A stretch of 32,000 nucleotides of DNA from Haloferax volcanii DS2 (GTDB taxonomy: Archaea; Halobacteriota; Halobacteria; Halobacteriales; Haloferacaceae): assembly GCF_000025685.1 (NCBI RefSeq), contig NC_013967.1, positions 1,590,001 to 1,622,000 of the forward strand, read 5' to 3'. Positions 10,056 to 28,628 of this stretch are shown here, piece by piece. The notes beneath the pieces were generated by a model. The model was not told the DNA's origin and searched no databases. It saw only the letters and a program-made list of their open reading frames with translations. Numbering within the stretch: the first letter of the stretch is position 1; the number at the start of each line of letters is the position of its first letter. The position numbers were made by a program, and so were the translations under genes.

Positions 10056-12957
<2,902 letters not shown>

Positions 12958-13073: not shown

Positions 13074-13074
13074 A

Positions 13075-13196: not shown

Positions 13197-13382
13197 ATTC
13201 ATACTTCACAGAGCCCACTGGACGCGGTGTCCAGTGGGCTTTGTTCATTTTATGCAGAGCGGCACGCACGGCCGCTCGCACACGCATACACAGAGCGACT
13301 GCGTCGGGCAGAGTCTCGAAAACGCCCGACTCAGGTCGCACACCGTCAGGCTTAAGCACAAGACCGGGATACCAGTAACTGC

Positions 13383-13459: not shown

Positions 13460-13636
13460 CTCACACGTTTCTCTAAAGCCCAAGACGACTACGTCTTGGC
13501 TCGTTTCCTCGCTGATCTCAACTTCTCGGAGTTCAGACAGTGGGATCACGCTGGCGACCAACTCGTTTTGAAACAGAGTTCTTGGAATATTCCGCATACA
13601 CAAAGATTTATTCCGCTAGACGACCGTATTTCAGGT

Positions 13637-14640: not shown

Positions 14641-14647
14641 GTTCGTC

Positions 14648-15157
14648 TCAGATTTTCTCACGTCGTCGTCGCAGACTGTGACGGATCAGCAGGAGAAAGG
14701 TGCACAGTTCGGCCCGTCGCCGAGATTCGACAAAACGAAACACAACGTTGTAATGTCGAGTCCACGTTGAGAGGGTGCCGACCATCTGGTTCGGATGGAT
14801 GTCCCGCCACGCCATACAGCCCCGGTTCTGAAGGAGGGTTTCCCAGGATGTCTCCACGACGACCGCAAGGGGTTGTGGCCACTCGGTGGCCCGACGTAAC
14901 TCGGAACAGAATCGATCTCGCTCCCACGTGAGTGCGGTGAGGAAGTCGTCTCCGGACTTGCGTTCGACTGCGAACCGTGGGTGATAGGTGTCCGATTCCG
15001 GATCGTGCGTACAAGCAGTCGGGACAGCGTAGTCCCCGGTCGAGAGCGTCACGTCGCGCGTCTCTACTGCACACCTCTCGAACGTCCAGGTTCGCTGTTC
15101 GCGGGTATCTCGCAGTATCGTTGAGGGAATAGAACTACCGTGTCGTGTCTCGCCCAT
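14648..15157 (-). CDS. ERCC4 (XPF/Mus81-type) nuclease-domain-only protein (169 aa)
   Basis: The ERCC4 signature GDx(n)ERKx3D is present: VTLSTGDYAV...FAVERKSGDDFLTAL. No HhH or helicase region is attached. Confidence 0.75.
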   Translation of the reverse strand: MGETRHGSSIPSTILRDTREQRTWTFERCAVETRDVTLSTGDYAVPTACTHDPESDTYHPRFAVERKSGDDFLTALTWERDRFCSELRRATEWPQPLAVVVETSWETLLQNRGCMAWRDIHPNQMVGTLSTWTRHYNVVFRFVESRRRAELCTFLLLIRHSLRRRREKI

Positions 15158-15224
15158 CTATTGCGTTTGGTGCCGGTATCGGAAATAAACCCTCGCAGCG
15201 AGAGAACAAGGGGGATAACGGAGA

Positions 15225-17207
15225 TCAGAATCCGGCCTTCTCCAGTTCGTCGAGAAACGCCGGTCGGTTCGAGTGTTTGTCTTTCAGGAAATCGACGAAC
15301 TCTTCCAACCGCGCTTCGGGGACCAACCCCTGCATCTCTTCTAAGTGGTCGGCGATATCTCGGTAGTGTCGTCGACCGGTGTCGCCGGCGGCAAACGGGA
15401 CGAGCAGTTCCCGGTAGAGTTCGAAGTATTCGACCGGCGCCGTGGTTGCGACCGGGTCACGGTACTGGCGAACCGACGAGAGGTCTGCGTTCTCTTTCAG
15501 TTCGGCAAACGCTCTTTCGAGGTCGTCGTCGTGGACGTACAGCGCGACGAGGTCCTTTCGATCGTCCCGTTCGAAGTGCCGTTCGAATTCCCCGTAGATC
15601 GATTGCCACTCCTGATCGTCACAGATTGTCTTCAGGTCGTCGTACGCTGCCCACTCCGTGTGGTCAAGAAATAACTGCTTCAGGGTGGCACGGTACTCGT
15701 CCATATCTCGGTCCTCGTAGAGGTCGGCAGCGAGCCAACGGAGCTCACGAGCCGATCGGAACGTATGGATCCCGTCTTCGACGACTTCGATCGCACGGTT
15801 TTCGTTGCCTTCGTCGATCAGTCGTCGGGCGTACTCCTTGCAGAATCGCTTGCTCTCGAGGTAGATTTCCTCGTAGAGTTGCGAGAGGGCGTCTTCGTCG
15901 CCGAGTTCCTCGAGAATGTAGACGTAGGTCGAGAATATCCGCCGCTTCTGGAGTGACGACGATATGTCCGTGTCGGTCGTTCCTGATTTGGTCAGTTCGA
16001 CACGTGCAGTGTGTTTCTCGACGGTCGTCGGTTCATCGACGCGTAACTCCTCGAACGCGTCACCGACGAAGTACTCGAATTGCAGTGTCCCAACAGCCAA
16101 GTGTTCGACGTCGAGCGCTCCACCGGTGAAATCGTCGGTGCTGAGCGGACCATCGGTGAAATCGGATGCGTAGAGAACGTCGTCCGTCCGTTCGGGATGG
16201 TCTGTGGAACCGTCATCTCTCGCTGATCCGTCGGATGTATCGGCGCTGTCTTCAGTTTCATCTCGTCGGTCGTCCGTTTTCGAGGACAACTCACCCGACA
16301 GTACTGCGTCGAGTGTGACTCCGGACACGTGTGCGTCGAGTTGCTCCAGCCAGTATTCGAGGTCCGCGTCCTCCGTGCAGACCGTTCGGAGTGCGCCGTC
16401 GTAGTCGTCGCTGGCGAAGCCGTGGTCTGCCCCGACGAACTCCGCACAGAGATACTGGATGTACAGCTCCTTTCGCTCGTGCTCGAACTCCTGTTCTGCG
16501 ACCGTCTCTGCATATGCCTCGATAGCGCGTTCCAGTTCACGGCCGTAGTGCCCGCTGCTGTCGTCGACTCGGTCCAGATTCTCGCGTATCCCCTCGGAAA
16601 CCGCTCGATAGATATCCGTCGCCGTATCGACGTGGCCCCGTTCTCGATGTGTCTCCGCGAGGTCGGTGTACTGCGAGAAGTCGATGTGTGTGCCGTGTTC
16701 GACCATCCCTCGACGACTGACAGCGTCGTCGAACAGTCGATCGATCTCCTGCTTGTAGTCGTAGACTGTCTTGCCCGTGTCTTCGCCGACGAACGCGACG
16801 AACCGGTCACGGATATCCTGATCCGCCGCAACGATGTCGAGCAGAAACGCTCGGAGGTCCTCGGCTGTCGTCTGATCGACCAGCGATTCGATGTCGACCG
16901 TTTCATTTCGTTCGGGGTCAGTGTCACTCATCGTCTCGGGGTCTCGATCATCGACAGCGAGCAGGACCGCGACGACGTGTTTGCAGTCGCCCGCGTAGTC
17001 GTACGGACAACTGCAACGAGACCGGACCCCATCGTCTACGATATCGATAGCCACGTCGTAGTAGTTGGATCCCCGAACGGTGGCTCTGATTTCGCTGCCG
17101 TCGATATCCAGTTCTTGTATCCGATCTTGGTGATAATAGTTGGCACCACGCTCGAACGACTGTTCCGTACAGAGTGACCGTATTTCGTCGCGAGCCGGGT
17201 AGTCCAT
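15225..17207 (-). CDS. SWIM zinc-finger protein, long form, with an acidic linker and a helical-repeat C-terminal half (660 aa)
   Basis: SWIM CxCx(n)CxH is present: RSRCSCPYDYAGDCKHVVAVLL. The N-terminal ~260 aa are paralogous to the ORF at 23635-24432. The C-terminal half is alpha-helical and repeat-like, in the style of COG4715. Confidence 0.8.
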   Translation of the reverse strand: MDYPARDEIRSLCTEQSFERGANYYHQDRIQELDIDGSEIRATVRGSNYYDVAIDIVDDGVRSRCSCPYDYAGDCKHVVAVLLAVDDRDPETMSDTDPERNETVDIESLVDQTTAEDLRAFLLDIVAADQDIRDRFVAFVGEDTGKTVYDYKQEIDRLFDDAVSRRGMVEHGTHIDFSQYTDLAETHRERGHVDTATDIYRAVSEGIRENLDRVDDSSGHYGRELERAIEAYAETVAEQEFEHERKELYIQYLCAEFVGADHGFASDDYDGALRTVCTEDADLEYWLEQLDAHVSGVTLDAVLSGELSSKTDDRRDETEDSADTSDGSARDDGSTDHPERTDDVLYASDFTDGPLSTDDFTGGALDVEHLAVGTLQFEYFVGDAFEELRVDEPTTVEKHTARVELTKSGTTDTDISSSLQKRRIFSTYVYILEELGDEDALSQLYEEIYLESKRFCKEYARRLIDEGNENRAIEVVEDGIHTFRSARELRWLAADLYEDRDMDEYRATLKQLFLDHTEWAAYDDLKTICDDQEWQSIYGEFERHFERDDRKDLVALYVHDDDLERAFAELKENADLSSVRQYRDPVATTAPVEYFELYRELLVPFAAGDTGRRHYRDIADHLEEMQGLVPEARLEEFVDFLKDKHSNRPAFLDELEKAGF

Positions 17208-17340: not shown

Positions 17341-18753
17341 ATGCGGATCGAGTTCGACGAGGGGACGCTCTTGCTCCACGATGCGCCCGAGACAGTTCCA
17401 CACGCAGAGTGGGACGACCGCGTCGATACTCACCGGGCACAGGCCTATCGATACCGGGCACTCCTCAAGTGGGCCGGACAGTGGAGCGATGGCGGTGGCC
17501 AGGCCACCCTCGACAGCGGATTCAGTCACGCTGTCGAAGACGCTGCCAGAGCGTACCCGGACCTCGCTCTGACACCCGCACTCCAGATCGAACCGCGTGA
17601 CTATCAGCAGACTGCACTCGGCTCGTGGGGTGCGCACGACCGACAGGGCACAGTAGTCCTTCCGACCGGCAGCGGGAAGACGTTCCTCGGATTGCAGGCT
17701 ATCGCCGACGCCGGTGTCAGCGCACTCGTCGTCACCCCGACGATCGATCTGATGAACCAGTGGCACGCCACGCTCACTCACGCGTTCGGTGAGCAACTCA
17801 CCGACGAGGTCGGCGTCCTCGGTGGCGGGTGTCACGATATCGGCGCGCCCACAGTCACTACCTACGACAGCGCCTACCGCTATATCGACGAGTACGGCGA
17901 TCGGTTCGGCCTGCTCATCACCGACGAAACCCACCATTTGGCGGCCGAGACGTACCTCCAAATTCCCGAGATGACGCTCGCGCCTTACCGCCTCGGATTG
18001 ACAGCGACCTACGAACGCGCTGACGGGCGAGAGACGCTACTCGAAGACCGTATGGGACCGGTTGTCTACGAGGAAGATGTCGACGCCCTCGCCGGAGATT
18101 TCCTCAGTGAGTACGAGACCATCCAGATGTCCGTCGATCTCACACCAGCGGAACGGACTGAATACGACGAGGAGTACCAGATCTACCGGGACTACGTCGA
18201 TAGTCACGACTTCGACCTCTGGAAAGAACAGGGCTACGCGGAGTTTCTCAAGCGGACGTCCTACGATCCACAGGGGCGACGTGCGCTCGTCGCAAAGCAA
18301 CGGGCCGAGCGCATCGCCCGGACGGCGTCGAAGAAACTCGATACGCTCGACAATCTGCTCAAACGTCACCACGACGATCGCGTCATCGTCTTCACCGCCA
18401 ACAACGACTTCGCCTACGACATCTCCCGGGAGTTCATTCTCCCGTGTATCACGCACCAGACCGACACCGACGAACGCACCGAGATTCTCGACCGGTTCCG
18501 CAGCGGTGAGTACTCCATGCTCGCCACCTCGCAGGTCCTCGACGAGGGCATCGACGTGCCAGCGGCCAACGTCGGCATCATCCTCTCCGGGAGCGCATCG
18601 AAACGACAGTACGCCCAACGACTCGGCCGGATCCTCCGTCCGACAGACGACCGCCAGCCAGCACGGCTCTACGAGATCATCACGACCGACACGATGGAGA
18701 CGTACGTCTCGCAGCGACGACGCGAGGGGGTGAGTAGCAGTGCTGACAGCTGA
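17341..18753 (+). CDS. xpb: archaeal XPB helicase, short canonical form (470 aa from the ATG at 17341)
   Basis: The N-terminus MRIEFDEGTLLL is DRD-like. Also seen: Walker A PTGSGKT, motif II LITDETHH, LTATYERADGRE at the RED-motif position, and motif VI-like QRLGRILR. The gene overlaps the downstream Bax1-like gene. Confidence 0.85.
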   Translation: MRIEFDEGTLLLHDAPETVPHAEWDDRVDTHRAQAYRYRALLKWAGQWSDGGGQATLDSGFSHAVEDAARAYPDLALTPALQIEPRDYQQTALGSWGAHDRQGTVVLPTGSGKTFLGLQAIADAGVSALVVTPTIDLMNQWHATLTHAFGEQLTDEVGVLGGGCHDIGAPTVTTYDSAYRYIDEYGDRFGLLITDETHHLAAETYLQIPEMTLAPYRLGLTATYERADGRETLLEDRMGPVVYEEDVDALAGDFLSEYETIQMSVDLTPAERTEYDEEYQIYRDYVDSHDFDLWKEQGYAEFLKRTSYDPQGRRALVAKQRAERIARTASKKLDTLDNLLKRHHDDRVIVFTANNDFAYDISREFILPCITHQTDTDERTEILDRFRSGEYSMLATSQVLDEGIDVPAANVGIILSGSASKRQYAQRLGRILRPTDDRQPARLYEIITTDTMETYVSQRRREGVSSSADS

Positions 18754-20092
18754 TCTCGCACGGTCGCGAACACGCGACGGCGCAGTCCGTCCTCTGTTCA
18801 TCGACATCTCCGACGAGCAGTACCGAGAGACGGCGGCCACGCTGATAGCGCTGTTCGAGGACCATCTCGGTGAACCGAAGGGAGAACTGGACGACGCCAT
18901 CGACGAACTGACCGTGGCCGATACCGACTACAAGATCGTCCAGGGGCTGGCGAAACTCCTCAGAGACGAGTGCGAGTTCGAGCAACAGGCGGCCGTTGAC
19001 CCACGCGAGATCCGCAAGCGACTGTTCGAGCGAGCCAACGATCGCTACCCGATCGTTCGCCAGCCCACACTCGGCGAAGACACGCAGAAACTGGAAGTCT
19101 ACAGCGCGGTCGCCGACGAGTTGGGCATCTCACTCGAGGAGTGTTACCGGGGTATGTACGCTGATCTGGAGGACAACAAACGGCTCGTCCGGTTCGGCGA
19201 CCAGTCGGTGCGCGATGACAGCGACGGACAGGAGTCCACGACGACAACGACGAAACTGACGGGAAATAGCAAGCAGGCGTACGATCAGCGCGACCAGACG
19301 GTCGACTGGCTGCTGGCTCGCTACAACCTCGCGCTGGCACAGGCCGTGCTCTACGACGCCTCGAAGATGCACTTTCGGGTGTGGGAGCACTTCGGAACGG
19401 TGTTCAGTTACATGAAGCTGTTCGGATTGATGCACCGGATCTACCCCATCGACGAGGACGGCAACCGCGTCGCAAGCACGGACGTGGCAGCGGGCTACGA
19501 GGCGGAACTCGACGGGCCAGTCTCGCTGTTTCGGCAATCACAAAAGTACGGCATCCGGATGGCGAACTTCCTGCCCGCGCTCCCGCTGTGTGACCGCTGG
19601 GAGATGCGCGCGGAGATTCTCGACGAGGGGTCGGCCGGCGACACCAAACAGTTCACACTCGACTACACTGATGGGCTCGTCTCCCACTACAGCACCGGCC
19701 AGCGGTTCGACAGCGACGTCGAGCGAACGCTCGCCCGAAAGTGGGAGCGGTCGACCACAGAGTGGGACCTCCAGCGCGAAGACGATGTGTTCGATCTCGG
19801 CTCCGAAGTGATGATCCCCGATTTCGCCATCGAACATCCCGACGGACGGCGGGCAATCATGGAGATCGTCGGGTTCTGGACGCCGGAGTACCTGGCGTCG
19901 AAACTGGCGAAGATACGGCAGGTCGAGACCCACAACTTCGTGTTGGCGGTCTCGGAACGACTGGACTGTTCCGACGAGGACTTCGGGGACGTTGCGGATC
20001 GCGTACTGTGGTTCAAAACCGGGATGCACGTCTACGACGTGGTCGAACTGGCCGAGGAGTACGCCTCTCCGGTCGAAACAGACCCCGACTGA
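18740..20092 (+). CDS. bax1: Bax1 (DUF790) nuclease, partner of XPB (450 aa, GTG start)
   Basis: The N-terminus LTADLARSRTRDGAVRPLF is typical of DUF790. The C-terminal PD-(D/E)xK-like core is MIPDFAIEH...MEIVGFWTPEYL. There is a 14-nt overlap with xpb. Confidence 0.75.
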   Translation: MLTADLARSRTRDGAVRPLFIDISDEQYRETAATLIALFEDHLGEPKGELDDAIDELTVADTDYKIVQGLAKLLRDECEFEQQAAVDPREIRKRLFERANDRYPIVRQPTLGEDTQKLEVYSAVADELGISLEECYRGMYADLEDNKRLVRFGDQSVRDDSDGQESTTTTTKLTGNSKQAYDQRDQTVDWLLARYNLALAQAVLYDASKMHFRVWEHFGTVFSYMKLFGLMHRIYPIDEDGNRVASTDVAAGYEAELDGPVSLFRQSQKYGIRMANFLPALPLCDRWEMRAEILDEGSAGDTKQFTLDYTDGLVSHYSTGQRFDSDVERTLARKWERSTTEWDLQREDDVFDLGSEVMIPDFAIEHPDGRRAIMEIVGFWTPEYLASKLAKIRQVETHNFVLAVSERLDCSDEDFGDVADRVLWFKTGMHVYDVVELAEEYASPVETDPD

Positions 20093-20099
20093 TCGGCAC

Positions 20100-20468
20100 T
20101 CAGCCCAAGCGGCCGCCGTCGCCGTTCCAGTAGTGCCAGTCATCGACTGCCTCCCGGGTATCCTGATCTACGTCGAGCACTTCGAGTTGTGACAACGGGA
20201 CACCGAATTCCCTGTCCTTCCACTCCACGAGGACGAACATCTCACGACTGCTGACGACTTCGTCCGTCATTCCGACGACAGGCACTTCTTCGCCCTCACG
20301 CAGCGGCGAGATCGTTCGCTCCTCGATACACCGCGCCTGAAACGGGAACGTCATCTCGCGTTCGAGGTGATAGCACCAGCTGATCGCTTGCTCGTCGGCG
20401 GTGTACGCGTCGGTGAGTATCTCCCTCCGAATGCGTTTGTCCCGCTCTTCGTCTGTCTCCCGTGTCAT
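20100..20468 (-). CDS. small acidic hypothetical protein (122 aa), last gene of the minus-strand cluster
   Basis: ATGA start/stop overlap with the upstream gene at 20465-20468. The C-terminal motif is VPLSQLEVLDVDQDTREAVDDWHYW. No family is assigned with confidence. Confidence 0.6.
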   Translation of the reverse strand: MTRETDEERDKRIRREILTDAYTADEQAISWCYHLEREMTFPFQARCIEERTISPLREGEEVPVVGMTDEVVSSREMFVLVEWKDREFGVPLSQLEVLDVDQDTREAVDDWHYWNGDGGRLG

Positions 20469-21235
20469 GGTCGTTTCTGCTTGACGATTGCGGCCGTGTC
20501 GGTCGACGTGATCACGTCGCCGTCGAGCACCTCGTCGATTTCGTCTGGTTCGTAGACATCCTTGACGATGCAGTAGTAATGCGAGGGCGTCCCGAAGTCG
20601 TAGACGAGACTGAGTCTGTCACCCTCTCGAAGTCTGGCCCGCTCGGCGACATCCGCAATCGTCATCTCGCCCGCTTTCGTGTACGTCCGGTCGCCTGCTT
20701 CCTCGTACTGGCGGTCAGGAAGCACGTTGAGACTGGAATCCAGATACTCGTCTTCGAGGCCGTACATCCGGAGGTGGAAATCGTCGAGCGTCGAGAACCG
20801 GCACACGAGTCTGTCCAGTTCCGCCATCGTCGTCTCCGGTCTCACGACGATATCGTACCACTCCTCCCGCGCACGCCCTTTCTGCTTCCACCGGAGCCGA
20901 TACCCGACAGTCCCGATCTGCTCGGACAGGTCGTCAGCATCCTGCTCTTTCCCCACTGCTTCACGCGTGTTCGACCAGCAATACGAGCAGATCTCGTCAG
21001 GTGCATCGCCTTCGAAGCCCGCCTTGTTGATGTCGTGGTGGGCGGCAAACTCCGACAACGAGACGTGCTGCGGACGCGGGTGGCGGTTCCCTCGACTACA
21101 CATCATCTCCCCGGGACCTCCAATGCCGAGCGAGAAGCGAGAGTCCGTCTCCGATTGGTCGGCGTCCGTATCGATGATGTGCGCGACGGTTCCGGTTCCG
21201 ATCTCGATCACGAATCGGTCGGTTGGCTCGCTCAT
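20465..21235 (-). CDS. MM3350-like / pRiA4b ORF-3-like (PF07929-type) protein with a Cys-containing N-terminal extension (256 aa)
   Basis: YRLRWKQ...EWYDIVVRPETTMAELDRLVCRFSTLDDFHLRMY and LSLVYDFGTPSHYYCIV match the two hallmark blocks of the family (Y.l.V.L..iWR.i.v....L..LH..I...fgW...HLh.F and Y.YDFGD.W.H.i). Confidence 0.65.
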   Translation of the reverse strand: MSEPTDRFVIEIGTGTVAHIIDTDADQSETDSRFSLGIGGPGEMMCSRGNRHPRPQHVSLSEFAAHHDINKAGFEGDAPDEICSYCWSNTREAVGKEQDADDLSEQIGTVGYRLRWKQKGRAREEWYDIVVRPETTMAELDRLVCRFSTLDDFHLRMYGLEDEYLDSSLNVLPDRQYEEAGDRTYTKAGEMTIADVAERARLREGDRLSLVYDFGTPSHYYCIVKDVYEPDEIDEVLDGDVITSTDTAAIVKQKRP

Positions 21236-21241
21236 CGTTGC

Positions 21242-21874
21242 TCACCGGTACTGGATGTAGATGCCATGGTCGCGATACAGGTCGTGGAACGCGACGAACC
21301 GCTGTCGGGAGGCCGCTTTCGGTTCGTCTGGCTCTACTCGATGCTCGTGTTCTTCGAGAAGGTGGGTTTTCTCCTCGCCGGGGAACGGAAACGAGACGCC
21401 CGAGGTTGTAGTAAACTCGTCGTACCGAACGGGTCTGAAAAACAGCACTGTCCCCGGCTCCGCGGTTCGGCTGAGGTTGATATCCAGCAGCGTGTGTTCT
21501 TCGCGGCCGTCGAGCAGATCGGTTACCGTCAGACGGGGGTCTGAGTCGCTGATGGACTCGACCTCGAACAGCGAGGGGTCGGCGTCGACGGTGGCTTCGA
21601 GAATGTCCCGTTCGGTTTCGCTCTCCCAGCGCTCCGCTTCGAGGTATCGCTCCGCCGCAGTGGTCCCGTCCCGGTGGTATTCGTACAGCGCGAACTCGAA
21701 GTGGGCCGCCATCTGGGATTCGAACTCGTAGGCCAGGTTCAGCCCGTCGAATTCGATGTCCAGCTCGGACGCGGTTTCTACGATCAGTTCCCGGTCAGAG
21801 TACGCCTCGAGGATGTCGCTGTTCAATTGCGTCCCGACTTCCCGATAGGTCTTGTACTGGTCGGTGTCGGTCAC
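21242..21874 (-). CDS. hypothetical acidic protein (210 aa)
   Basis: Clean ORF, co-directional, only 6 nt from the next gene. No motif recognised. Confidence 0.6.
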   Translation of the reverse strand: MTDTDQYKTYREVGTQLNSDILEAYSDRELIVETASELDIEFDGLNLAYEFESQMAAHFEFALYEYHRDGTTAAERYLEAERWESETERDILEATVDADPSLFEVESISDSDPRLTVTDLLDGREEHTLLDINLSRTAEPGTVLFFRPVRYDEFTTTSGVSFPFPGEEKTHLLEEHEHRVEPDEPKAASRQRFVAFHDLYRDHGIYIQYR

Positions 21875-21933
21875 TACGAGAGTGTATCATCTGGGCGGTA
21901 CCAGTATCTTGTGGCGCCGGACGTACAGTGGGA

Positions 21934-22920
21934 TTACAGATCCATATCGGCAAACGTCCATTCCTCTCCCAGTTGTCGGTGGAACCCCTCGGATTCGATC
22001 GTGTTCCGCAACTGCGATCTGACTGTCTCGTCGAACTCGAACCGGTCGTTCAATTCATCGCGCATGTCCCAGTAACGAGGGACCTTCGGAGCGGAATCGC
22101 GGTCGACCTCGGACAGGATCGACGCCAGCAGGTATCGATCCTCGTAGTCGATCCGCTCGTCACTCAGCAACGCATCCATCAAGTCGGCTGCAGCGTGCTG
22201 ATCGGCGTAGAACGCATGCGGGAGCACGCCCCGAACCCAGAATAGTTCCTCGGTAACAGCATCCTGGAGTTGCTCTTCGACCGAGTGCTCGGGATAGCCG
22301 ATTCCCCATCCGTACGTGAACGATTCTTCCCAACTCGTGTCTTTATTTGAATCCCAGAACGAACCGAGATACGCCAGCGCCTCGGCGGGGACTGCCCCGA
22401 CGCCGTCGCGCCGTCGCGTCCGGACGACGTGGCGTCCGACTGCGTTCTCGATGACCGGGCTCACGAAGGGTTCGTCGTCGCTCTCACGCGAATATGCGTC
22501 GATAAGATCTGTGAGAAACGGCCATCCTTCACGCGTAGCGATTTCGTCGAGCGCCTCTGCTGCCGGTTCGTAAAACGCCCAGAATATCCCGCGATACGTG
22601 TCGTCGTTCTCGGTTTGGTGGTATTCCTGAAGTTCTCGTTCGTAGTGAGCGAGCATCTGGAATGCGGCGTCAGCGTCCCCTTTCGCAGCCGCTTCGAGAT
22701 TGGTTTTCAACGTTCCACTCGCGGCTTCCAGCCCTCGTTTCTCGCGCTCTTGATTCCGCCGCTCCATGTCGGCGTCGAGAGCGTCCGAGATCGAATCGAG
22801 GAAACTGTCGAACGACGACAGCGGGTTCGACTCCGCTGGCTCTTCAGCAGGACAGTCGTGTAGACGCAGGCGACTCAACGTAGTGAAACTCTCACCGCAG
22901 GCATCGCACTCGTGTGGCAT
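21934..22920 (-). CDS. hypothetical protein with an N-terminal C2H2/C2HC-type zinc finger (328 aa)
   Basis: N-terminus MPHECDACGESFTTLSRLRLHDC (Cx2Cx12HxC). The rest is acidic and helical with no recognised domain. Confidence 0.65.
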   Translation of the reverse strand: MPHECDACGESFTTLSRLRLHDCPAEEPAESNPLSSFDSFLDSISDALDADMERRNQEREKRGLEAASGTLKTNLEAAAKGDADAAFQMLAHYERELQEYHQTENDDTYRGIFWAFYEPAAEALDEIATREGWPFLTDLIDAYSRESDDEPFVSPVIENAVGRHVVRTRRRDGVGAVPAEALAYLGSFWDSNKDTSWEESFTYGWGIGYPEHSVEEQLQDAVTEELFWVRGVLPHAFYADQHAAADLMDALLSDERIDYEDRYLLASILSEVDRDSAPKVPRYWDMRDELNDRFEFDETVRSQLRNTIESEGFHRQLGEEWTFADMDL

Positions 22921-22995
22921 CGTTCGTATTCGTCTGGACGAGGGGGAGACACATCTACGTTCGGGGCTGTTCTGGCTGTCTCGAACGCGCAGATA

Positions 22996-23553
22996 TTACT
23001 CGTCGAGATCAGGGTATTGAGACGGTGCTGTGCCTTGCTCGTCGACGACGACGGGATCACCATCCATCGATCCCGTTCGCGTGTCTTGCAGTTCGATGTA
23101 GTGTTCCCAGCTGTCGCCCATGTCGAACGTGTAGGAGAGCGCGCCCAGATCTTCCGGATCGAGTTCGTCGATCGTCGTCTCAGCGGCGTTGCCTTCCATC
23201 GGTGGGTTCGACTGGAGTTCGCGGAACCGTTCTTTGGCTTCCTCGGACGCGTCGTCCGGCACGGCCTGCTCGATGAAGCGATCGATCTCTTCGTCGTCCA
23301 TTGTGCGCCAGCTCGGACCGCCATCGTAGAGCATCGGATGGACGTAGCTCCGGAGCGCGATGCCGTTGTCATCGCGTGTGATGAACTCGTAGGCGTGGCT
23401 CTCCCAGCGATCGAACGCCTGGAAGATCGCCTCGTGGAACGTAGCGAGCGTGTGTGACCCGTCGATCTCGAGGTCGTGCCAGACCTCCTCGTCGGGTTCG
23501 AACCCCAGCGGTGGATGCGGCTGGAGCCAGACGCGGAACACGTAGGTCGTCAT
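22996..23553 (-). CDS. MM3350-like / pRiA4b ORF-3-like protein (185 aa)
   Basis: YVFRVWL...EVWHDLEIDGSHTLATFHEAIFQAFDRWESHAYEF and LSYTFDMGDSWEHYIEL are close to the family consensus. Confidence 0.75.
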   Translation of the reverse strand: MTTYVFRVWLQPHPPLGFEPDEEVWHDLEIDGSHTLATFHEAIFQAFDRWESHAYEFITRDDNGIALRSYVHPMLYDGGPSWRTMDDEEIDRFIEQAVPDDASEEAKERFRELQSNPPMEGNAAETTIDELDPEDLGALSYTFDMGDSWEHYIELQDTRTGSMDGDPVVVDEQGTAPSQYPDLDE

Positions 23554-23634
23554 GCCTCGTCTAACGAGGGTCAGTGTTGTAGATTTTTCGCGTAGACAAT
23601 AGATATCCGCTGATGAATCGATTCGCTGACTTCC

Positions 23635-24432
23635 TCACTCGTATCGCTCCTCCAGATCGTCGAGTGCGCGCCGGAACTGCTCGTCGTTGATCCGCGGCTC
23701 TGCCGTTGCCCGCGCCTCAAGCACGCCAGCGTACGTGTCGAACTCTTCGGGAGTCGGATTGGTCGCGAGGACGCAGTCGGCGTAGCCGTCGAGTGCGGTC
23801 TGGATCGCCTTCGCGTAGTGGTCGTAGGCACCGTCGATCCAGTTGTATTTCTCGTCGATCTCCTCGAACACCGCTCGGTAGACGGTCGCAGCGGCCAGAT
23901 ACCGCTCGCGGTCACGGTACTGCTCGGCGATCTCCAAAAACCGGGAGAAGTCGATGGCCTCGAACACGACCGGGTCGGCGTGTTGCTCGAACAACTGCGC
24001 GATTTCCTCGCGGTACTCCTCGACCGATCTGTGGTCGTCGCCAAAGCGTGCGAGAAACTGCTCGCGCAACTCCGGATGTTCGGCGAGGGCGTCACGGGCG
24101 AACCCACGCAGGTCCTCGGCCGACACGTCGTCGATGACTGCCTCGACACGCTCGCTCTCGTCCTGTGGCGGGCTGGCGGCGATGTCCAGCAGTACTGCGA
24201 CGACGTGCTTGCAGTCGCCGCCACCGTCGTACGGACAGGTACACCGCGCATCGATACTGCGCCCGCCGAACTCGACAGTCACGTCGTACAACTTCGAACC
24301 GCTGATGGTGGCCGTAACGAGTTCGCCAAATCGGTCGAGTTGCTGAATGCGTCCCTCGTCACGGTAGTTGACTCCGCGTTCGAACACCGCATCGGTGCTT
24401 CTGTTCTTGACCCTTTCCCTATCGATGTTCAT
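23635..24432 (-). CDS. SWIM zinc-finger protein, short form (265 aa from the ATG at 24432)
   Basis: ARCTCPYDGGGDCKHVVAVLL is a SWIM motif. The protein is collinear with the N-terminal part of the 660-aa SWIM protein. It lies 32 nt downstream of the helicase gene. Confidence 0.8.
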   Translation of the reverse strand: MNIDRERVKNRSTDAVFERGVNYRDEGRIQQLDRFGELVTATISGSKLYDVTVEFGGRSIDARCTCPYDGGGDCKHVVAVLLDIAASPPQDESERVEAVIDDVSAEDLRGFARDALAEHPELREQFLARFGDDHRSVEEYREEIAQLFEQHADPVVFEAIDFSRFLEIAEQYRDRERYLAAATVYRAVFEEIDEKYNWIDGAYDHYAKAIQTALDGYADCVLATNPTPEEFDTYAGVLEARATAEPRINDEQFRRALDDLEERYE

Positions 24433-24464
24433 GACTCGTCTTTCGACGCAGACGTAAAATTCGA

Positions 24465-26873
24465 TTACGGTGTCGAATCGGCGGCCTGCCGGCTCGGATC
24501 GGCCAGCGCCATCGTGAGCGTCGCCGCGAGGCGTTTGTCGAGCGGTTCGTTCGCTCGGCCACAGTGCGGTGATTGAATACACGCCGGACAGCCGTCGGAA
24601 CAGCCACAATCGGCGAGCAGTTCCCACGTGTGCTGGAAGAGTCCCTCGATGTGGTCGTATCCGTTGCGGGCGAGTCCGACACCACCGCGGTAACTGTCGT
24701 ACATGAATAGCGCGCTCGTCTCGGTCTGTGGGTGTTCGGCCGTCGAGACGCTTCCAACGTCACGCCGGTCACAAAGGATGACCAGCGGGAATGTGGCGAC
24801 GAGGGCGTGCTGGACGGCGTGGAGGCCACCCTCGAACGACCCGGACATCGTCTGCATCAGGCTTTCCAGTCCCGGTGGGAGCGTCACGTACAGTGCACGG
24901 GTCGAGAGCGTCGTTTCGGGCAGCTTGAGTGCCTCCTCGGTCATGATCTCACCAGTTCGGTGGTCGCGTCGCTGGAAGCCGGTGACCTGCTTCCGTCGCG
25001 TCACGTCCGCGAAGTGAACGGTCACGTCGTCGCGGGTCGCCAGTGGCTTGGTAGCGCTGTCCTCCTCGATAGTCATCGACTCCTCGTACTGCACGCGCGT
25101 CTGGTGGTCGCTGTCCGTTTCGGCGAGCCACGCCACGTCGCGGTCTAGGTCGAGTGACTGGACTTCGTAGTTCTGCCCCTGATGGTGGTAGATCGCACCT
25201 GGATGTACGTCCCGCAGTGCCGCGTTGAGCGGCAACTTCCCGAGTTCGTCAGTCGCTCCCCCTCGAACCCGGAGGGTGACCATGCGTTCTGTGATGGTTC
25301 GGAGCCCCTGTTCGTACGGATTCACCGTTCGTCCGCTGGCGGTGCGTCGCCATTCGAGTCCTTGATCTGTCTGTCGCCGGGTCAATTCGCCGTCGTTTGT
25401 GAGGGTACTGACGATGTCGGGGAAAGTAGAACCGAAATACGCCTCGTCGGCGGTTCGGAGCGGTCCTTCCATGGCCGCGGCGTGTGTATGCAGTTTCAGG
25501 AGATGCGAATTCGAGGGATTGGCGACGGCACGCTCGGGCGTCTGCTCGAACAGTTCGTTAGGATGCTTGATAACGTACTGGTCGAGTTGATCCTCGCTGG
25601 CGACGAGCGCGACGAGGCTCGGGTCGGTCCCACGGCCAGCGCGGCCCGCGCGCTGGAACGTTGCCATCTGTGTTCCAGGGTACCCGTCTAACAGGACGGC
25701 GTCGAGGCTGCCGATGTCGACGCCGAGTTCCAGCGCGCTCGTGCTCCAGACGCCGGCACAGTCCCCGGAGTGCAGTGCAGTCTCGATTGTCGCCCGCCGG
25801 TCATCGCGCAGTCCTGCGTGGTACGCAGTTACGCTCTGGGCGATGTCGGCCCTCCCGCGCTCTGCGAGTGTATCGCTGCTGATGGTGGCGTACCGCTCTG
25901 CCGTCTGCCTCGCGCGCGTGAACGCCACTGTCTGATACCCCTGCATCACGAGGTCGACGAACAGTCGCATGGTTTCCCCGTGGTTGGAGCGGCGCTGTCC
26001 ACCACCGGCCGGTGCATCGCCCTCGTCGTATTCCGGTGGTTGCCAGAACAGCCAGTGTGTCGGACCCGTTTCACTGGTGTCCTCGTCGACGAGTTCGAAC
26101 GAGTCGGTCGGTTGGCCGGCGATCGTCGCTGCGTGCTCCCGGGGATTGCCGATCGTCGCGGAACAGCACACGAACTGCGGGTCGGCACCGAGACGGTCAC
26201 AGATCCGCGCCAGCCGGCGGCAGACGAGACCGACGTGACTGCCGAAGACACCGCGGTACTCGTGGACTTCGTCGACGACGACGAGTTCCAACGACTCGAA
26301 GAACGCTCGCCAGAGGTCGCCCGCGTGACTGAGCAGTCCACAGTGGAGCATATCCGGCGTCGTCAAGACGATGGACGGGTCTTCGTCACGTGCCTGCTGG
26401 CGCTCGTCCGAAGAGAGCGAGCCTGTGTACTGAGTCACGGAGAGATCGTCGAACGGTGCAGCGAAATCAGACAGCGTCGTCTCCTGGTCGTTGATCAGCG
26501 CGACCTGCGGACCGATATACAGCGTCCGTCCGTCGTACTTGTGAGCGCGCTCGATGGCGGGAATCGTGTACGCGAGGCTCTTTCCGCTTGCTGTCGGCGT
26601 CGCGAGGACGACGTTCTGCCCGTTGCGAACCGCTTCGATGGCGTCGGTCTGGTGTGCGTAGAGTCCGTCGATGCCCCGGTTAGCAAGGAGGTCTGCGAGC
26701 CGGCGCTCCATCTCACAGGATCGAGTGATGGGCCTACGAGCGGGAATCTCCCGCTGGAACTGGATCTGATCGCGGTAGTACTCGCGGTTCTGTACCCACT
26801 CGACGAACTCGTTCACTACTCCGTGGATACTGCGTGCCCGCATATAGGGATATGGCCCTCGACTTGTCGCCAT
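24465..26873 (-). CDS. COG1205-type DEAD/DEAH (DEVH) SF2 helicase with a C-terminal DUF1998/MZB Cys cluster (MrfA/Hrq1-like, 802 aa)
   Basis: Motifs seen: Walker A ATPTASGKS, motif II VVVDEVHEY, CSATIGNP and motif VI QRAGRAGRG. The C-terminus is DCGCSDGCPACIQSPHCGRANEPLDK. Confidence 0.85.
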   Translation of the reverse strand: MATSRGPYPYMRARSIHGVVNEFVEWVQNREYYRDQIQFQREIPARRPITRSCEMERRLADLLANRGIDGLYAHQTDAIEAVRNGQNVVLATPTASGKSLAYTIPAIERAHKYDGRTLYIGPQVALINDQETTLSDFAAPFDDLSVTQYTGSLSSDERQQARDEDPSIVLTTPDMLHCGLLSHAGDLWRAFFESLELVVVDEVHEYRGVFGSHVGLVCRRLARICDRLGADPQFVCCSATIGNPREHAATIAGQPTDSFELVDEDTSETGPTHWLFWQPPEYDEGDAPAGGGQRRSNHGETMRLFVDLVMQGYQTVAFTRARQTAERYATISSDTLAERGRADIAQSVTAYHAGLRDDRRATIETALHSGDCAGVWSTSALELGVDIGSLDAVLLDGYPGTQMATFQRAGRAGRGTDPSLVALVASEDQLDQYVIKHPNELFEQTPERAVANPSNSHLLKLHTHAAAMEGPLRTADEAYFGSTFPDIVSTLTNDGELTRRQTDQGLEWRRTASGRTVNPYEQGLRTITERMVTLRVRGGATDELGKLPLNAALRDVHPGAIYHHQGQNYEVQSLDLDRDVAWLAETDSDHQTRVQYEESMTIEEDSATKPLATRDDVTVHFADVTRRKQVTGFQRRDHRTGEIMTEEALKLPETTLSTRALYVTLPPGLESLMQTMSGSFEGGLHAVQHALVATFPLVILCDRRDVGSVSTAEHPQTETSALFMYDSYRGGVGLARNGYDHIEGLFQHTWELLADCGCSDGCPACIQSPHCGRANEPLDKRLAATLTMALADPSRQAADSTP

Positions 26874-27608: not shown

Positions 27609-27656
27609 ACGCCGACGGTCCTGAACCTTTTCAATCAAGCAGTCGTACCCGTTTCT

Positions 27657-28628
27657 ATGCCGTTTAGCGTCAGCTGGCACACGCTGCTCGAGGAGCTCGA
27701 CGAGTTGCCCGACGATGCTGAACTCGTCACACCGCTCTCGCACGATACGTTCCGCGTCACGGACGTACAGGAACACCGCGTTGTCGTCACGTTCGACGAC
27801 ACGGGAGAGCGTCGCCCGCTCCAGCGCGATCAGTTCGAGACCCTTCACCGCCGGATCCAGGACTCGAACGGTGCGTTCGAACTCGACCGGCTCCCACCCG
27901 ATGCCGATCCCTATCCGGCAGTGCTGAGCCTGCATCCGCGATTCGAGGTGGACGAAGAGCAGGGTAGTATCGCCGAAACGGAAGCAGAGACTGGTACCCA
28001 ACTCCTGAGTGGCGAATCAGCACCTGCCGAGAGCGACCGTGTCGAACCTGACGAGATCGACGTGTATTCGGATGCCCTTCTCCTCATCGATGCGCTGGAA
28101 CGTCAGGACGTCTCCGATCTCACAGCACTGGAGACGGAAGCACTGGTGAACCTCTACACGCTCTGTTCGGATGTCCAGCGGAACGCGGACGAACTCCGCC
28201 AGGACATCGCCGACGTGTTACTCGATCGACTCCACCACGATCAGCCAGTCCACGGGCAGTACGGCTCGGTTCAGCGAACGTCGCGTCGTAACCGCTCGTT
28301 GAAAGACGAGGAAGACGTACTGGCCACACTGGAAGGCGCAGGGATCGACCGCGAGCGTGTCATGAGCGTCGACTCGAAGAAAGTGAACGAGGCACTGGAA
28401 GTAACGGAACTCTCGGAAACGGATGTCTACGAGGTTGACGAGAGCGAATACGTCCGGAAGGCCGAAGTAGACGAGGATGTCAAAGAGTCACGACTCCAGG
28501 GATTGAAAGACCGGCTTGCGGCCAGTAGCGACGCAGAATCCGACGAACTCAGACAGGAGATCGAGGCCCTCGAAGAACGTATCGACGACCTTACGAGTTT
28601 CAGTACGGGGACACAGATGCAGGGGTAG
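27657..28628 (+). CDS. hypothetical acidic protein with a coiled-coil-like C-terminus (323 aa)
   Basis: Clean ORF with strongly acidic composition. The C-terminus SDELRQEIEALEERIDDL is heptad-like. No tyrosine- or serine-recombinase motifs. Confidence 0.6.
   Translation: MPFSVSWHTLLEELDELPDDAELVTPLSHDTFRVTDVQEHRVVVTFDDTGERRPLQRDQFETLHRRIQDSNGAFELDRLPPDADPYPAVLSLHPRFEVDEEQGSIAETEAETGTQLLSGESAPAESDRVEPDEIDVYSDALLLIDALERQDVSDLTALETEALVNLYTLCSDVQRNADELRQDIADVLLDRLHHDQPVHGQYGSVQRTSRRNRSLKDEEDVLATLEGAGIDRERVMSVDSKKVNEALEVTELSETDVYEVDESEYVRKAEVDEDVKESRLQGLKDRLAASSDAESDELRQEIEALEERIDDLTSFSTGTQMQG

What the first reader, a model, noticed from the sequence alone, without database searches (positions are those of the whole stretch)
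20100..26873. Seven co-directional genes led by a DUF1998 helicase: helicase, SWIM, MM3350-like, C2HC finger, unknown, MM3350-like, small protein
All seven ORFs are on the minus strand. Successive gaps are 32, 81, 75, 59 and 6 nt, then a 4-nt ATGA overlap, so at least the helicase-SWIM pair and the last three genes look translationally or transcriptionally coupled. The COG1205 helicase (DEVH box plus the CxC..CxxC..HC cluster) normally pairs with an exonuclease, as in bacterial MrfA-MrfB. Here no nuclease is in the run. Instead there are two copies of a domain of unknown function (PF07929-like) and a zinc-finger protein. This composition is not one I can map to any characterised pathway.
Basis: partly seen in the sequence, partly recalled or inferred. 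Interest (0 to 1): 0.85.

Follow-up and report, generated by a model that had tools for sequence, protein, structure and literature searches.

The report
Mobile helicase island in Haloferax volcanii

Summary
The window is H. volcanii DS2 chromosome 1,590,001-1,622,000, and the seven minus-strand genes are HVO_1744 to HVO_1738, with exactly the stated gaps. Published RNA-seq calls one 7.3-kb, seven-gene transcript. Published TSS mapping adds internal promoters before HVO_1743, 1741 and 1740.

The seven-gene order is not conserved elsewhere. In about 25 related loci the conserved core is a YprA/MrfA-type helicase, a SWIM protein, a divergent MM3350-like protein and a CcbP-like protein. HVO_1742, 1741 and 1740 are variable inserts.

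The core is embedded in a recurrent island of about 15 kb: DUF7983 | helicase operon | XPB-Bax1 | second SWIM protein, ERCC4 nuclease. The nucleases are therefore next door, not absent.

The island has low GC and is patchily distributed across haloarchaeal families at 75-93% identity. It occurs on a plasmid and shows repeated helicase truncation. Yet dN/dS is 0.05-0.23. An MM3350+CcbP fusion in a bacterium links the last two genes.

My best reading is an accessory helicase-nuclease module that surveys DNA, either defence/mobile-element conflict or accessory repair. The partner set is absent from the papers I could search. Function is inferred, not shown.

The parts
24465..26816 (-). HVO_1744, a YprA/MrfA-type SF2 helicase (783 aa from the GTG at 26816). 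It carries Walker A, DEVH, SAT and QRAGRAGR motifs, an Hrq1-type winged helix, and a C-terminal MZB/DUF1998 four-Cys cluster.
   Evidence: Pfam and NCBIfam. Full-length match to B. subtilis YprA/MrfA 6ZNP, E 3.5e-121. TSS at 26824 with a TATA at -28.
23635..24432 (-). HVO_1743, a SWIM zinc-finger protein (265 aa) and the conserved partner directly downstream of the helicase. Its transcript is leaderless, starting at 24432.
   Evidence: SWIM 7.5e-8. PADLOC candidate PDC-S62 4.9e-15 and DpdE N-terminus 4e-4. A full-length helicase lies directly upstream in 19 of 24 informative orthologous loci. TSS.
22996..23553 (-). HVO_1742, an MM3350-like (PRiA4_ORF3) protein of 185 aa. It is a variable insert and is often paired with a DUF8137 gene. 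No TSS of its own was mapped.
   Evidence: Pfam 1.8e-15. Profile match to PDB 2I1S, 2.7e-4. Adjacent to DUF8137 genes in L003, L004, L008, L036, L047 and L130.
21934..22920 (-). HVO_1741, DUF8137: an N-terminal C2HC zinc finger plus an all-alpha solenoid (328 aa). It is a variable insert with its own TSS at 22927.
   Evidence: Alignment. AlphaFold2 model with pLDDT 84 and pTM 0.78. Only weak armadillo-like fold matches, TM <= 0.34. 76 loci in haloarchaea, often next to XPB-Bax1, DUF7983 or the 660-aa SWIM protein.
21242..21874 (-). HVO_1740, DUF7986 (210 aa), unknown fold. It is a variable gene that, when present, precedes the MM3350-like/CcbP pair. TSS at 21877.
   Evidence: Precomputed Pfam. 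Present in L084-L087, L130, L151 and L169. No similarity to HVO_1739 or to the f9-like domain.
20465..21235 (-). HVO_1739 (256 aa): a conserved Cys/His N-domain plus a divergent MM3350-like C-domain. It is a core gene. In the minimal islands its start overlaps the SWIM gene's stop.
   Evidence: PRiA4_ORF3 at 2.9e-4, below cut-off. Alignment A3 shows invariant C45, C82-x2-C85 and H18, and the YDFG..H motif. Neighbourhoods.
20100..20468 (-). HVO_1738, a CcbP-family protein (122 aa). It is a core gene whose ATG overlaps the stop of HVO_1739 (ATGA).
   Evidence: Pfam 4e-34. PDB 2K2V 2e-17. Overlap. A natural PRiA4_ORF3+CcbP fusion occurs in Saccharibacillus.
19532..26824 (-). Seven-gene polycistronic RNA (published coordinates chr 1609532-1616814). 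Primary TSSs lie at window 26824, 24432, 22927 and 21877, and internal TSSs at 24631, 22215, 20530 and 20456. The 3' end overlaps the convergent rad25b-bax1 RNA.
   Evidence: Laass 2019 Table S2 (PMC6490895). Babski 2016 Table S2 (PMC4983044).
26925..27608 (+). HVO_1745 (227 aa), with weak helix-hairpin-helix motifs. It is divergent from the helicase, variable between islands, and co-transcribed with HVO_1746.
   Evidence: HHH_5 1.9e-4. Two-gene transcript. Orthologues in L086 and L087.
27657..28628 (+). HVO_1746, DUF7983 (323 aa). It is the conserved divergent neighbour of the helicase and is very abundant on haloarchaeal plasmids. Its function is unknown.
   Evidence: Adjacent to the helicase in about 21 of 24 informative loci. 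93 places on 70 plasmids. At least 1,959 clusters. phrog_35116 6e-142. DUF2800 only E 0.017. Structure model failed.
17341..20092 (+). HVO_1736 (Rad25b/XPB helicase) and HVO_1737 (Bax1/DUF790 nuclease). They are convergent with the seven-gene operon and form a conserved island module.
   Evidence: Pfam. HVO numbering. Present in 11 island loci. Also on pNRC100 and pHsi204.
14648..17207 (-). HVO_1735 (660-aa SWIM protein, a paralogue of HVO_1743 over about 230 N-terminal residues) and HVO_1734A (169-aa ERCC4 nuclease with GDY...ERKSGDD). They form a conserved island module.
   Evidence: PDC-S62 1.3e-23.
13637..14640 (+). HVO_1733 (DUF7342) and HVO_1734 (TumE family), a pair at the left edge of the island next to tRNA-Cys (13383-13460).
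   Evidence: Precomputed Pfam in L001 converted to window coordinates. tRNA. The same edge is seen in Halorhabdus and L084.

Best explanation
The seven genes (HVO_1744-HVO_1738) are the central operon of a horizontally mobile, plasmid-associated accessory island of about 15 kb (HVO_1733 to HVO_1746). The island recurs in many haloarchaeal genera.

Shown:
- One long RNA covers all seven genes, and it carries internal promoters.
- Four genes form a conserved, co-inherited core: a YprA/MrfA-type helicase, a SWIM protein, a divergent MM3350-like protein and a CcbP-like protein.
- Three genes (the MM3350-like HVO_1742, the zinc-finger/alpha-solenoid HVO_1741, and HVO_1740) are variable cargo.
- Conserved neighbours are DUF7983, XPB-Bax1, a second SWIM protein and an ERCC4 nuclease.

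Inferred mechanism:
- The helicase is a 3'-to-5' ssDNA translocase like MrfA and SftH.
- The SWIM protein is its DNA-recognition or regulatory subunit. The same N-terminal SWIM module is fused to helicases such as DpdE.
- The translationally coupled MM3350-like/CcbP-like pair acts as an adaptor or regulator rather than an enzyme.
- DNA cutting is done in trans by the neighbouring ERCC4 and Bax1 nucleases.

I commit to an accessory role in DNA surveillance. Action against foreign or aberrant DNA (defence or conflict between mobile elements) is most likely, rather than housekeeping repair. This rests on how the island evolves.
For: Identity and expression:
- The source is H. volcanii DS2.
- TSS table and seven-gene transcript.

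Conserved core and island:
- Helicase-centred metagenome loci.
- A full-length helicase lies directly upstream of the SWIM orthologue in 19 of 24 informative loci, and the MM3350-like gene lies downstream in about 20 of 27.
- The same island with the same flanks occurs in Halorhabdus tiamatea.
- The core occurs on Haloarcula plasmid pHsi204.

Mobility:
- GC is 0.59-0.64 across the run against 0.65-0.72 at the window edges and 66.7% for the genome (PMC12091111).
- Orthologues at 75-93% identity occur in different families, while no close Haloferax orthologue was returned.
- Neighbourhoods are rich in transposases, toxin-antitoxin genes and Orc1/Cdc6.
- Component families sit on dozens of megaplasmids.

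Selection: dN/dS is 0.05-0.23, and dS is similar across the block.

Functional link of the last two genes:
- 4-nt overlap.
- PRiA4_ORF3+CcbP fusion protein.

Context that points to defence:
- The SWIM N-module matches PADLOC candidate PDC-S62 (4.9e-15 and 1.3e-23) and DpdE.
- Bacterial CcbP-like genes sit beside a PDDEXK nuclease/DUF499 and beside Tn3/integrase.
- Deleting rad25b gave no gene-conversion phenotype although the gene is highly expressed (PMC11276520).
Against: - There is no phenotype, interaction or biochemical datum for any of the seven proteins.
- By sequence the helicase falls with the repair-type YprA/MrfA/SftH enzymes (409 bits to YprA; 650 bits to TIGR03817). It scores far lower against defence helicases (DruE 117 bits, DrmA 38 bits).
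- No methyltransferase, abortive effector or known complete defence system is present.
- The helicase is repeatedly lost while its partners persist. This argues against an obligate helicase-centred machine.
- The coverage-based transcript call cannot separate one long RNA from overlapping shorter ones.
- No integrase or att repeat marks the H. volcanii copy.
- The role assigned to MM3350/CcbP is a guess from gene order and fusions.
Confidence: 0.5

Rival explanations
1. This is an accessory DNA-repair cassette. The MrfA-like helicase, XPB-Bax1 and the ERCC4 (XPF-type) nuclease together unwind and excise bulky adducts or cross-links, as MrfAB does for mitomycin C damage. The zinc-finger proteins sense the lesion. 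The cassette spreads horizontally because extra repair capacity pays off in UV-rich, desiccating brines.
For: - The helicase is closest to B. subtilis YprA/MrfA over its full length and to the SftH-type model TIGR03817. This is the branch that Bell et al. 2025 call repair-related.
- Every enzyme with a characterised homologue (MrfA, XPB, Bax1, ERCC4) works in excision-type repair (PMC7293015 abstract).
- HVO_1745 has HhH motifs.
- Expression is constitutive.
Against: - No MrfB-type exonuclease is present.
- The distribution is patchy and HGT-like, the genes are carried on plasmids, and the helicase is pseudogenised in several hosts.
- Most haloarchaea carry a separate 'solo' YprA homologue (50-59% identity to HVO_1744) in housekeeping synteny, which could be the repair enzyme.
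- The rad25b deletion had no phenotype in the one assay reported.
Confidence: 0.3
2. The run is a decaying fragment of an integrated megaplasmid. It is a mosaic of unrelated cargo genes that happen to be read through by one transcript, and they share no function.
For: - Gene content between the SWIM and MM3350-like genes is variable.
- IS and TnpB insertions and truncations occur in relatives.
- Each family also occurs alone in other plasmid contexts.
- Several internal promoters are mapped.
Against: - All seven ORFs are intact and under purifying selection.
- Core order and start/stop overlaps are kept in about 20 loci from different genera.
- The MM3350+CcbP fusion shows that at least that pair works together.
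- The whole island, flanks included, is conserved between Haloferax and Halorhabdus.
Confidence: 0.12
3. One reading: a single, obligate seven-component, nuclease-free helicase machine with a fixed gene order.
For: One seven-gene transcript. Tight spacing and overlap.
Against: - The exact order was found in no other locus.
- HVO_1740 was a singleton among 76 DUF8137-centred loci.
- Three of the seven genes are dispensable in most islands.
- Nucleases are conserved neighbours.
Confidence: 0.05

Closest known systems
MrfA/YprA-MrfB (B. subtilis mitomycin repair factors) and mycobacterial SftH
   Same: The helicase architecture is the same: SF2 core, winged helix and a C-terminal MZB/DUF1998 four-Cys domain. 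The full-length match has E 3.5e-121. A 3'-to-5' translocase activity is expected.
   Different: There is no MrfB (DnaQ/RNase H-like exonuclease), either adjacent or fused. The partners are instead SWIM, MM3350-like and CcbP-like proteins. The locus is mobile and patchily distributed.
YprA-family defence systems (DISARM, Druantia, Dpd, ARMADA, BRIGADE, TALON; Bell et al. 2025, bioRxiv 10.1101/2025.09.15.676423)
   Same: It is a multigene cluster centred on a YprA-family helicase, in a mobile, island-like context, with nucleases encoded nearby. BRIGADE shows that such systems exist in halophilic archaea.
   Different: - The helicase is compact (783 aa) and repair-type by similarity.
- There is no methyltransferase, BrxHII-like helicase, PLD/Vsr/NERD nuclease, 7-deazaguanine genes or DruH-like partner.
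- SWIM and MM3350 do not appear in that paper's main text, and SWIM was not found in its held supplements either; CcbP was not searched for there.
Archaeal XPB-Bax1 helicase-nuclease
   Same: An XPB-Bax1 pair (HVO_1736-1737) is a conserved module of the island. It converges on the seven-gene operon and its RNA overlaps that operon's RNA.
   Different: It is a separate transcription unit and is not part of the seven genes. Here it is one of four rad25 paralogues, is island- and plasmid-borne, and its deletion gave no phenotype in the reported assay.
SWIM-domain modules attached to helicases (DpdE N-terminus; PADLOC candidate PDC-S62; bacterial SWIM + SNF2 pairs, the last from my own knowledge)
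   Same: The N-terminal module of about 140-230 residues in HVO_1743 and HVO_1735 matches PDC-S62 and DpdE. It is encoded next to a helicase.
   Different: Here it is a separate polypeptide beside a YprA-type helicase, not an SNF2-type one. The C-terminal helical part has no known relative.
CcbP (Anabaena Alr1010 calcium-binding protein) and MM3350/PRiA4_ORF3 (PDB 2I1S; IS1096/ISAzba1 passenger genes)
   Same: Family membership by sequence is clear for HVO_1738 and HVO_1742. MM3350-like genes are known passengers of mobile elements (PMC3942029).
   Different: Neither family has an established molecular function in DNA transactions. Their pairing, their fusion and their link to a helicase are new observations here.

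Membership tests
YprA/MrfA helicase family | SF2 DExH core with intact ATPase motifs | tested here: met
   DEAD 1.1e-28 and Helicase_C 5.3e-11. GKS, DEVH, SAT and QRAGRAGR are readable in the translation.
YprA/MrfA helicase family | C-terminal MZB/DUF1998 zinc-binding domain on the same polypeptide | tested here: met
   PF09369 2.6e-20 at residues 688-766, with a C-x-C...C-x2-C...HC cluster.
YprA/MrfA helicase family | Full-length collinearity with a solved member | tested here: met
   6ZNP YprA, E 3.5e-121; residues 27-749 align with 34-732.
MrfAB repair system | Adjacent or fused MrfB-type 3'-5' exonuclease | tested here: not met
   No exonuclease or RNase H-like domain in any of the seven proteins or their neighbours. 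A plasmid paralogue in Haloarcula litorea does have one.
DISARM | Helicase (DrmA) and DUF1998 (DrmB) as separate proteins, plus a methyltransferase and a PLD nuclease | tested here: not met
   The MZB domain is fused to the helicase. DrmA models score only 1e-10. No methyltransferase or PLD is in the window.
Druantia | Very large DruE (about 1,500-2,100 aa) with DruH or other Dru partners | tested here: not met
   The protein is 783 aa. DruE models match only in pieces. No Dru partner hits.
ARMADA / BRIGADE | BrxHII-like helicase plus PglX-like methylase (ARMADA); two YprA homologues plus 7-deazaguanine genes (BRIGADE) | tested here: not met
   The Pfam and PADLOC scans of the window's proteins found neither a methylase nor a second YprA homologue nor queuosine-type genes.
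PRiA4_ORF3 / MM3350-like | Match to PF07929 above the gathering score, including the YxFDxGDxWxH motif | tested here: met
   HVO_1742: 57.5 bits against a 26.6-bit cut-off. Both motif regions align to 2I1S.
PRiA4_ORF3 / MM3350-like | The same test for the 256-aa HVO_1739 | tested here: inconclusive
   21.1 bits, below the cut-off. hhalign against the HVO_1742 family gives E 0.1, collinear, with YDFG..H kept.
CcbP family | Full-length match to PF11535 and to Alr1010 | tested here: met
   4e-34. 2K2V 2.2e-17 over residues 3-117.
CcbP family | Calcium binding | not testable with these tools
The acidic composition is uninformative in a halophile.
SWIM zinc finger | CxCxnCxH motif matching PF04434 | tested here: met
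   32.2 bits against 19.6 for HVO_1743, and 27.4 bits for HVO_1735.
Operon (single transcription unit) | One RNA that covers all seven genes | tested here: met
   Published transcript no. 1583 is 7,283 nt with 'Operon 7'. Caveat: the call is coverage-based, and four primary plus four internal TSSs are mapped inside it.
PD-(D/E)XK nuclease (DUF2800), for HVO_1746 | Significant match or a recognisable catalytic motif or fold | tested here: inconclusive
   PF10926 E 0.017, below the cut-off. No PDB relative. AlphaFold2 pLDDT 45.

The most novel reading that the evidence does not exclude
The whole island acts as one previously undescribed, modular haloarchaeal immune or anti-plasmid system. Its parts are DUF7983, a YprA-type helicase with SWIM, MM3350-like and CcbP-like partners, XPB-Bax1, and a second SWIM protein with an ERCC4 nuclease. 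Under this reading archaeal XPB-Bax1, long assumed to be a nucleotide-excision-repair relic with no clear phenotype, serves in defence against foreign DNA. MM3350 and CcbP would be a new class of regulatory or adaptor domains for helicase-nuclease effectors.
Probability: 0.25. Interest if true: 0.85.

Novelty: new variant of a known kind. Interest (0 to 1): 0.62.

Why it matters
YprA/MrfA helicases are now seen as the hub of several immune systems and of one repair pathway. This locus adds a partner set (SWIM, MM3350-like, CcbP-like) that I did not find described in the papers I could search.

It sits in H. volcanii, the most tractable haloarchaeal model. Deletions, virus (HFPV-1), plasmid and DNA-damage assays are routine there.

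It also ties XPB-Bax1, whose role in archaea is still unresolved, to a mobile, plasmid-borne gene set. That gives a concrete non-NER hypothesis to test.

It offers a first functional handle on three widespread orphan families:
- PF07929 (MM3350-like / PRiA4_ORF3);
- PF11535 (CcbP) outside cyanobacteria;
- DUF7983, with at least 1,959 sequence clusters.

If the island turns out to be a plain accessory repair cassette or inert plasmid cargo, the result is modest.

Tried and rejected
- **DUF7983 (HVO_1746) as the 'missing' nuclease.** NCBI names some members DUF2800 or PD-(D/E)XK, but the Pfam hit is E 0.017, a profile search of PDB found nothing, and the AlphaFold2 model was unusable (pLDDT 45). 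Left open.
- **Viral origin of the island.** DUF7983 equals phrog_35116. There is no match in GenBank phages or IMG/VR, and the region is not one of the four known H. volcanii proviruses. Rejected.
- **Integration at tRNA-Cys.** No direct repeat of the tRNA end was found across 13.2-31 kb. Unsupported.
- **HVO_1740 as a relative of HVO_1739.** My de novo clustering merged them. BLAST shows no similarity, so this was a clustering artefact.
- **HVO_1740 as a relative of the f9-like domain that is fused to CcbP.** Rejected: HMM and hhalign are not significant.
- **An enzymatic fold for HVO_1741.** The model is confident, but only weak armadillo-like matches were found.
- **My first neighbourhood scan, centred on DUF8137**, suggested that nothing was conserved. 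The helicase-centred scan corrected this.
- **An ORF I first used as 'U227'** (27177-28001, minus strand) is a spurious antisense ORF over HVO_1746.
- **One literature search was wasted** on the word 'SWIM'.
- **The HFPV-1 infection paper** holds no searchable supplements.

Full report
**1. What the window is**

The proteins are strongly acidic, and the window carries an archaeal rRNA operon. Exact look-ups name every protein as Haloferax volcanii DS2, main chromosome. Published coordinates fix the window as chr 1,590,001-1,622,000 in the same orientation. For example, the HVO_1743 start at chr 1,614,432 equals window 24432.

The seven ORFs are, in order:

| Gene | Product |
|---|---|
| HVO_1744 | helicase |
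| HVO_1743 | SWIM protein |
| HVO_1742 | MM3350-like protein |
| HVO_1741 | DUF8137 zinc-finger protein |
| HVO_1740 | DUF7986 protein |
| HVO_1739 | 256-aa protein |
| HVO_1738 | CcbP-like protein |

Rad25b is HVO_1736 (PMC11276520), which fixes the numbering.

**2. Checking the observation**

- Coordinates, strand, the gaps (32, 81, 75, 59 and 6 nt) and the ATGA overlap are all as stated.
- Domain calls are confirmed, with three corrections.
  - The helicase starts at the GTG at 26816 (783 aa), because the mapped TSS is at 26824.
  - The 256-aa protein is MM3350-like only below Pfam's threshold, and the profile-profile test gives E 0.1.
  - The small protein is a clear CcbP-family member.
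- dN/dS against orthologues is 0.05-0.23 for all seven genes, so all are real genes under selection.

**3. Transcription (published data)**

- Mixed RNA-seq lists transcript 1583 on the minus strand at chr 1,609,532-1,616,814. It is 7,283 nt long and flagged 'Operon 7'. It is also flagged as overlapping the 3' UTR of the convergent two-gene rad25b-bax1 transcript (PMC6490895 Table S2).
- dRNA-seq maps primary TSSs for four genes (PMC4983044 Table S2):
  - HVO_1744: 8-nt leader, TATA at -28, score 6.41.
  - HVO_1743: leaderless, score 5.6.
  - HVO_1741: 7-nt leader.
  - HVO_1740: 3-nt leader.
- An internal TSS with a strong promoter score (7.63) lies 62 nt upstream of the HVO_1738 start.
- No TSS is mapped for HVO_1742 or HVO_1739.

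The run is therefore an operon with nested promoters. It is not seven separate units and not a single-promoter unit. The coverage-based call cannot prove a single molecule.

**4. Is the gene order conserved?**

I ran two scans.

*Scan centred on the 328-aa protein.* It returned 76 haloarchaeal genome loci. In these the seven-gene order is absent. The same families recur in shuffled arrangements among transposases, TnpB, Orc1/Cdc6 and toxin-antitoxin genes.

*Scan centred on the helicase.* It returned 80 metagenome loci. They split cleanly into two groups.

- About 55 homologues at 50-59% identity sit in ordinary housekeeping synteny with none of these partners, apart from L106 and L108, which keep DUF7983 and one or two other island genes.
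- About 25 at 79-92% identity share one layout. It reads: DUF7983 (divergent) | helicase, SWIM, [optional DUF8137 / MM3350-like / DUF7986 / an 'f9-like' gene], 256-aa protein, CcbP | Bax1, XPB (convergent) | 660-aa SWIM, [DUF8137-like], ERCC4.

Counts:

- A full-length helicase lies directly upstream of the SWIM orthologue in 19 of 24 informative loci.
- The 256-aa gene follows within 4.5 kb in about 20 of 27.
- In the minimal form its start overlaps the SWIM stop codon.

Halorhabdus tiamatea carries the same island with the same flanks, copA on one side and TumE on the other. Haloarcula sinaiiensis carries it on plasmid pHsi204.

In H. volcanii, then, four genes are the conserved core and three are inserts (HVO_1742, 1741, 1740). 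HVO_1742 and HVO_1741 form a module of their own that recurs elsewhere.

**5. The island is mobile and accessory**

- GC is 0.59-0.64 over the run, against 0.65-0.72 at the window edges and 66.7% for the genome.
- SWIM orthologues at 75-90% identity occur in Haloarcula, Halorhabdus, Halobacterium, Halorubrum, Natronomonas, Halolamina and Salinadaptatus. The scans returned no close Haloferax relative.
- Component families sit on many megaplasmids:
  - DUF7983 in 93 places on 70 plasmids, often followed by an overlapping MM3350-like gene, and next to XPB-Bax1 on pNRC100.
  - The helicase family on 78 plasmids, with other partners.
- The helicase is truncated or IS-disrupted in Halorhabdus, in strain DL31 and on pHsi204. 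It is missing in two further loci, while SWIM and its downstream genes stay intact.
- The region is not one of the four described proviruses. It has no viral relatives. I found no att repeat.

**6. What the proteins are**

- **Helicase.** It shows full-length similarity to B. subtilis YprA/MrfA (3.5e-121) and to the SftH-type model TIGR03817. Defence helicases score far lower.
- **SWIM proteins.** The N-terminal module matches PADLOC candidate PDC-S62 and the N-terminus of DpdE. The rest has no known relative.
- **HVO_1741.** The AlphaFold2 model is confident (pLDDT 84). It shows a zinc finger plus an alpha-solenoid, with only weak armadillo-like matches, so it looks like a scaffold rather than an enzyme.
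- **CcbP domain.** There are 1,136 representative clusters. Some carry the domain C-terminal to other domains:
  - a canonical PRiA4_ORF3 domain in Saccharibacillus;
  - an 'f9-like' domain that is itself encoded by a variable island gene.

  These fusions, together with the 4-nt overlap, link HVO_1739 and HVO_1738 functionally.
- **ERCC4 protein.** It keeps the catalytic GDY...ERKxxxD signature.
- **DUF7983.** It remains opaque.

**7. Interpretation**

Shown: the anatomy, the transcription, the conservation pattern, the mobility and the purifying selection.

Inferred:
- The SWIM protein is the helicase's recognition or regulatory subunit.
- MM3350-like and CcbP-like proteins form an adaptor or regulatory pair.
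- The neighbouring ERCC4 and Bax1 provide cleavage.

The evolutionary behaviour resembles defence or mobile-element conflict systems more than core repair. That behaviour includes HGT, plasmid carriage, modular shuffling, recurrent loss and neighbourhoods full of toxin-antitoxin genes and transposases. The helicase's closest relatives and all characterised homologues, however, are excision-repair enzymes.

I weight the readings as follows:

| Reading | Weight |
|---|---|
| Surveillance / defence | about 0.5 |
| Accessory repair | about 0.3 |
| Inert plasmid cargo | about 0.1 |
| The original fixed seven-gene machine | about 0.05 |

**8. Comparison with what is known, and novelty**

The helicase is a member of the YprA/MrfA family. 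The locus fails the defining tests for MrfAB, DISARM, Druantia, ARMADA and BRIGADE (see the membership table).

The broad 2025 survey of YprA systems describes the repair branch as 'YprA only' or MrfB-linked. Its main text does not mention SWIM or MM3350, and SWIM was not found in its held supplements either; I did not search it for CcbP. Full-text searches for the HVO numbers, for PF07929/MM3350 and for Bax1+SWIM found no description of this association.

I therefore class it as a new variant of a known kind, a helicase-centred gene cluster of the YprA family. A minority possibility is that the whole island is a new immune system that also recruits XPB-Bax1.

Noticed in passing
window 19532-20352: The seven-gene RNA (3' end at 19532) and the convergent rad25b-bax1 RNA (3' end at 20352) overlap by about 820 nt. 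The overlap covers the end of bax1 and most of HVO_1738, so the two helicase units may regulate each other by antisense.
   Followed up: no
window 22373 (+) and 26392 (+): Published antisense TSSs lie inside HVO_1741 and HVO_1744, both with TATA-like elements. Short antisense RNAs are also listed over HVO_1740, 1741 and 1744.
   Followed up: no
window 526-2691 (-): A second XPB/Rad25 paralogue (rad25d, HVO_1723) lies 15 kb from rad25b. It is 721 aa, has a long N-terminal extension and has no Bax1 partner.
   Followed up: partly
window 4001-7602: This stretch holds an Orc1/Cdc6 gene (HVO_1725, 4707-5912) beside a GC dip to 0.56, a FilR1-like regulator (6084-6869) and a TBP paralogue (6955-7602), all just upstream of the rRNA operon. 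From my own knowledge this is the oriC2/orc5 region.
   Followed up: no
window 13383-13460: tRNA-Cys, downstream of the 5S rRNA, directly abuts the left edge of the low-GC island (HVO_1733 starts at 13637). No repeat of the tRNA end was found at the other edge.
   Followed up: yes
window 27657-28628; plasmid loci L164-L166: DUF7983 (HVO_1746) is extraordinarily abundant and conserved: at least 1,959 clusters at 90% identity, mostly 76-93% identical to the query, and 93 copies on 70 haloarchaeal plasmids. It is often followed by an MM3350-like gene with a 4-nt overlap. Its function is unknown.
   Followed up: partly
L169 9076-9978; L170 6076-10004; L173 11586-11978: In Halorhabdus tiamatea, strain DL31 and Haloarcula plasmid pHsi204, only the 3' (MZB) part of the helicase gene survives next to an intact SWIM gene. 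In DL31 an IS605-type TnpB sits inside the helicase gene.
   Followed up: yes
P0476; P0463, P0512, P0522, P0507, P0496, P0453; P0506: The CcbP domain occurs as a C-terminal fusion to a PRiA4_ORF3 domain, to an unnamed domain of about 200 aa also encoded by a variable island gene ('f9', e.g. L151 12945-14531), and to DUF6429. This suggests CcbP is a general partner module and not only a calcium buffer.
   Followed up: yes
L167 and L168 (bacterial plasmids): Bacterial CcbP-like genes sit beside a PDDEXK nuclease and a DUF499 protein (Leptolyngbya pLBX), and beside a Tn3 transposase and an integrase (Cupriavidus). These are contexts typical of mobile elements or defence.
   Followed up: no
window 30826-31971 (-); L169 4039-7663: A copper-type P-type ATPase with an HMA/TRASH regulator flanks the DUF7983 end of the island in both H. 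volcanii and Halorhabdus. The transferred block may therefore be larger than 15 kb.
   Followed up: no
window 16960-17018 vs 24188-24246: A 59-nt stretch is 80% identical between the two SWIM genes. It is the coding region of the SWIM motif in the paralogues HVO_1735 and HVO_1743.
   Followed up: partly
L082 (Haloarcula litorea plasmid) 6171-14728: A plasmid paralogue of the helicase (46% identity) lies in a different cluster: ThiF-like adenylyltransferase, YprA-type helicase, RNase H-like protein (MrfB-like?) and a second DEAD/DEAH helicase. Near-identical hit coordinates in six genera suggest a widely shared plasmid module.
   Followed up: no
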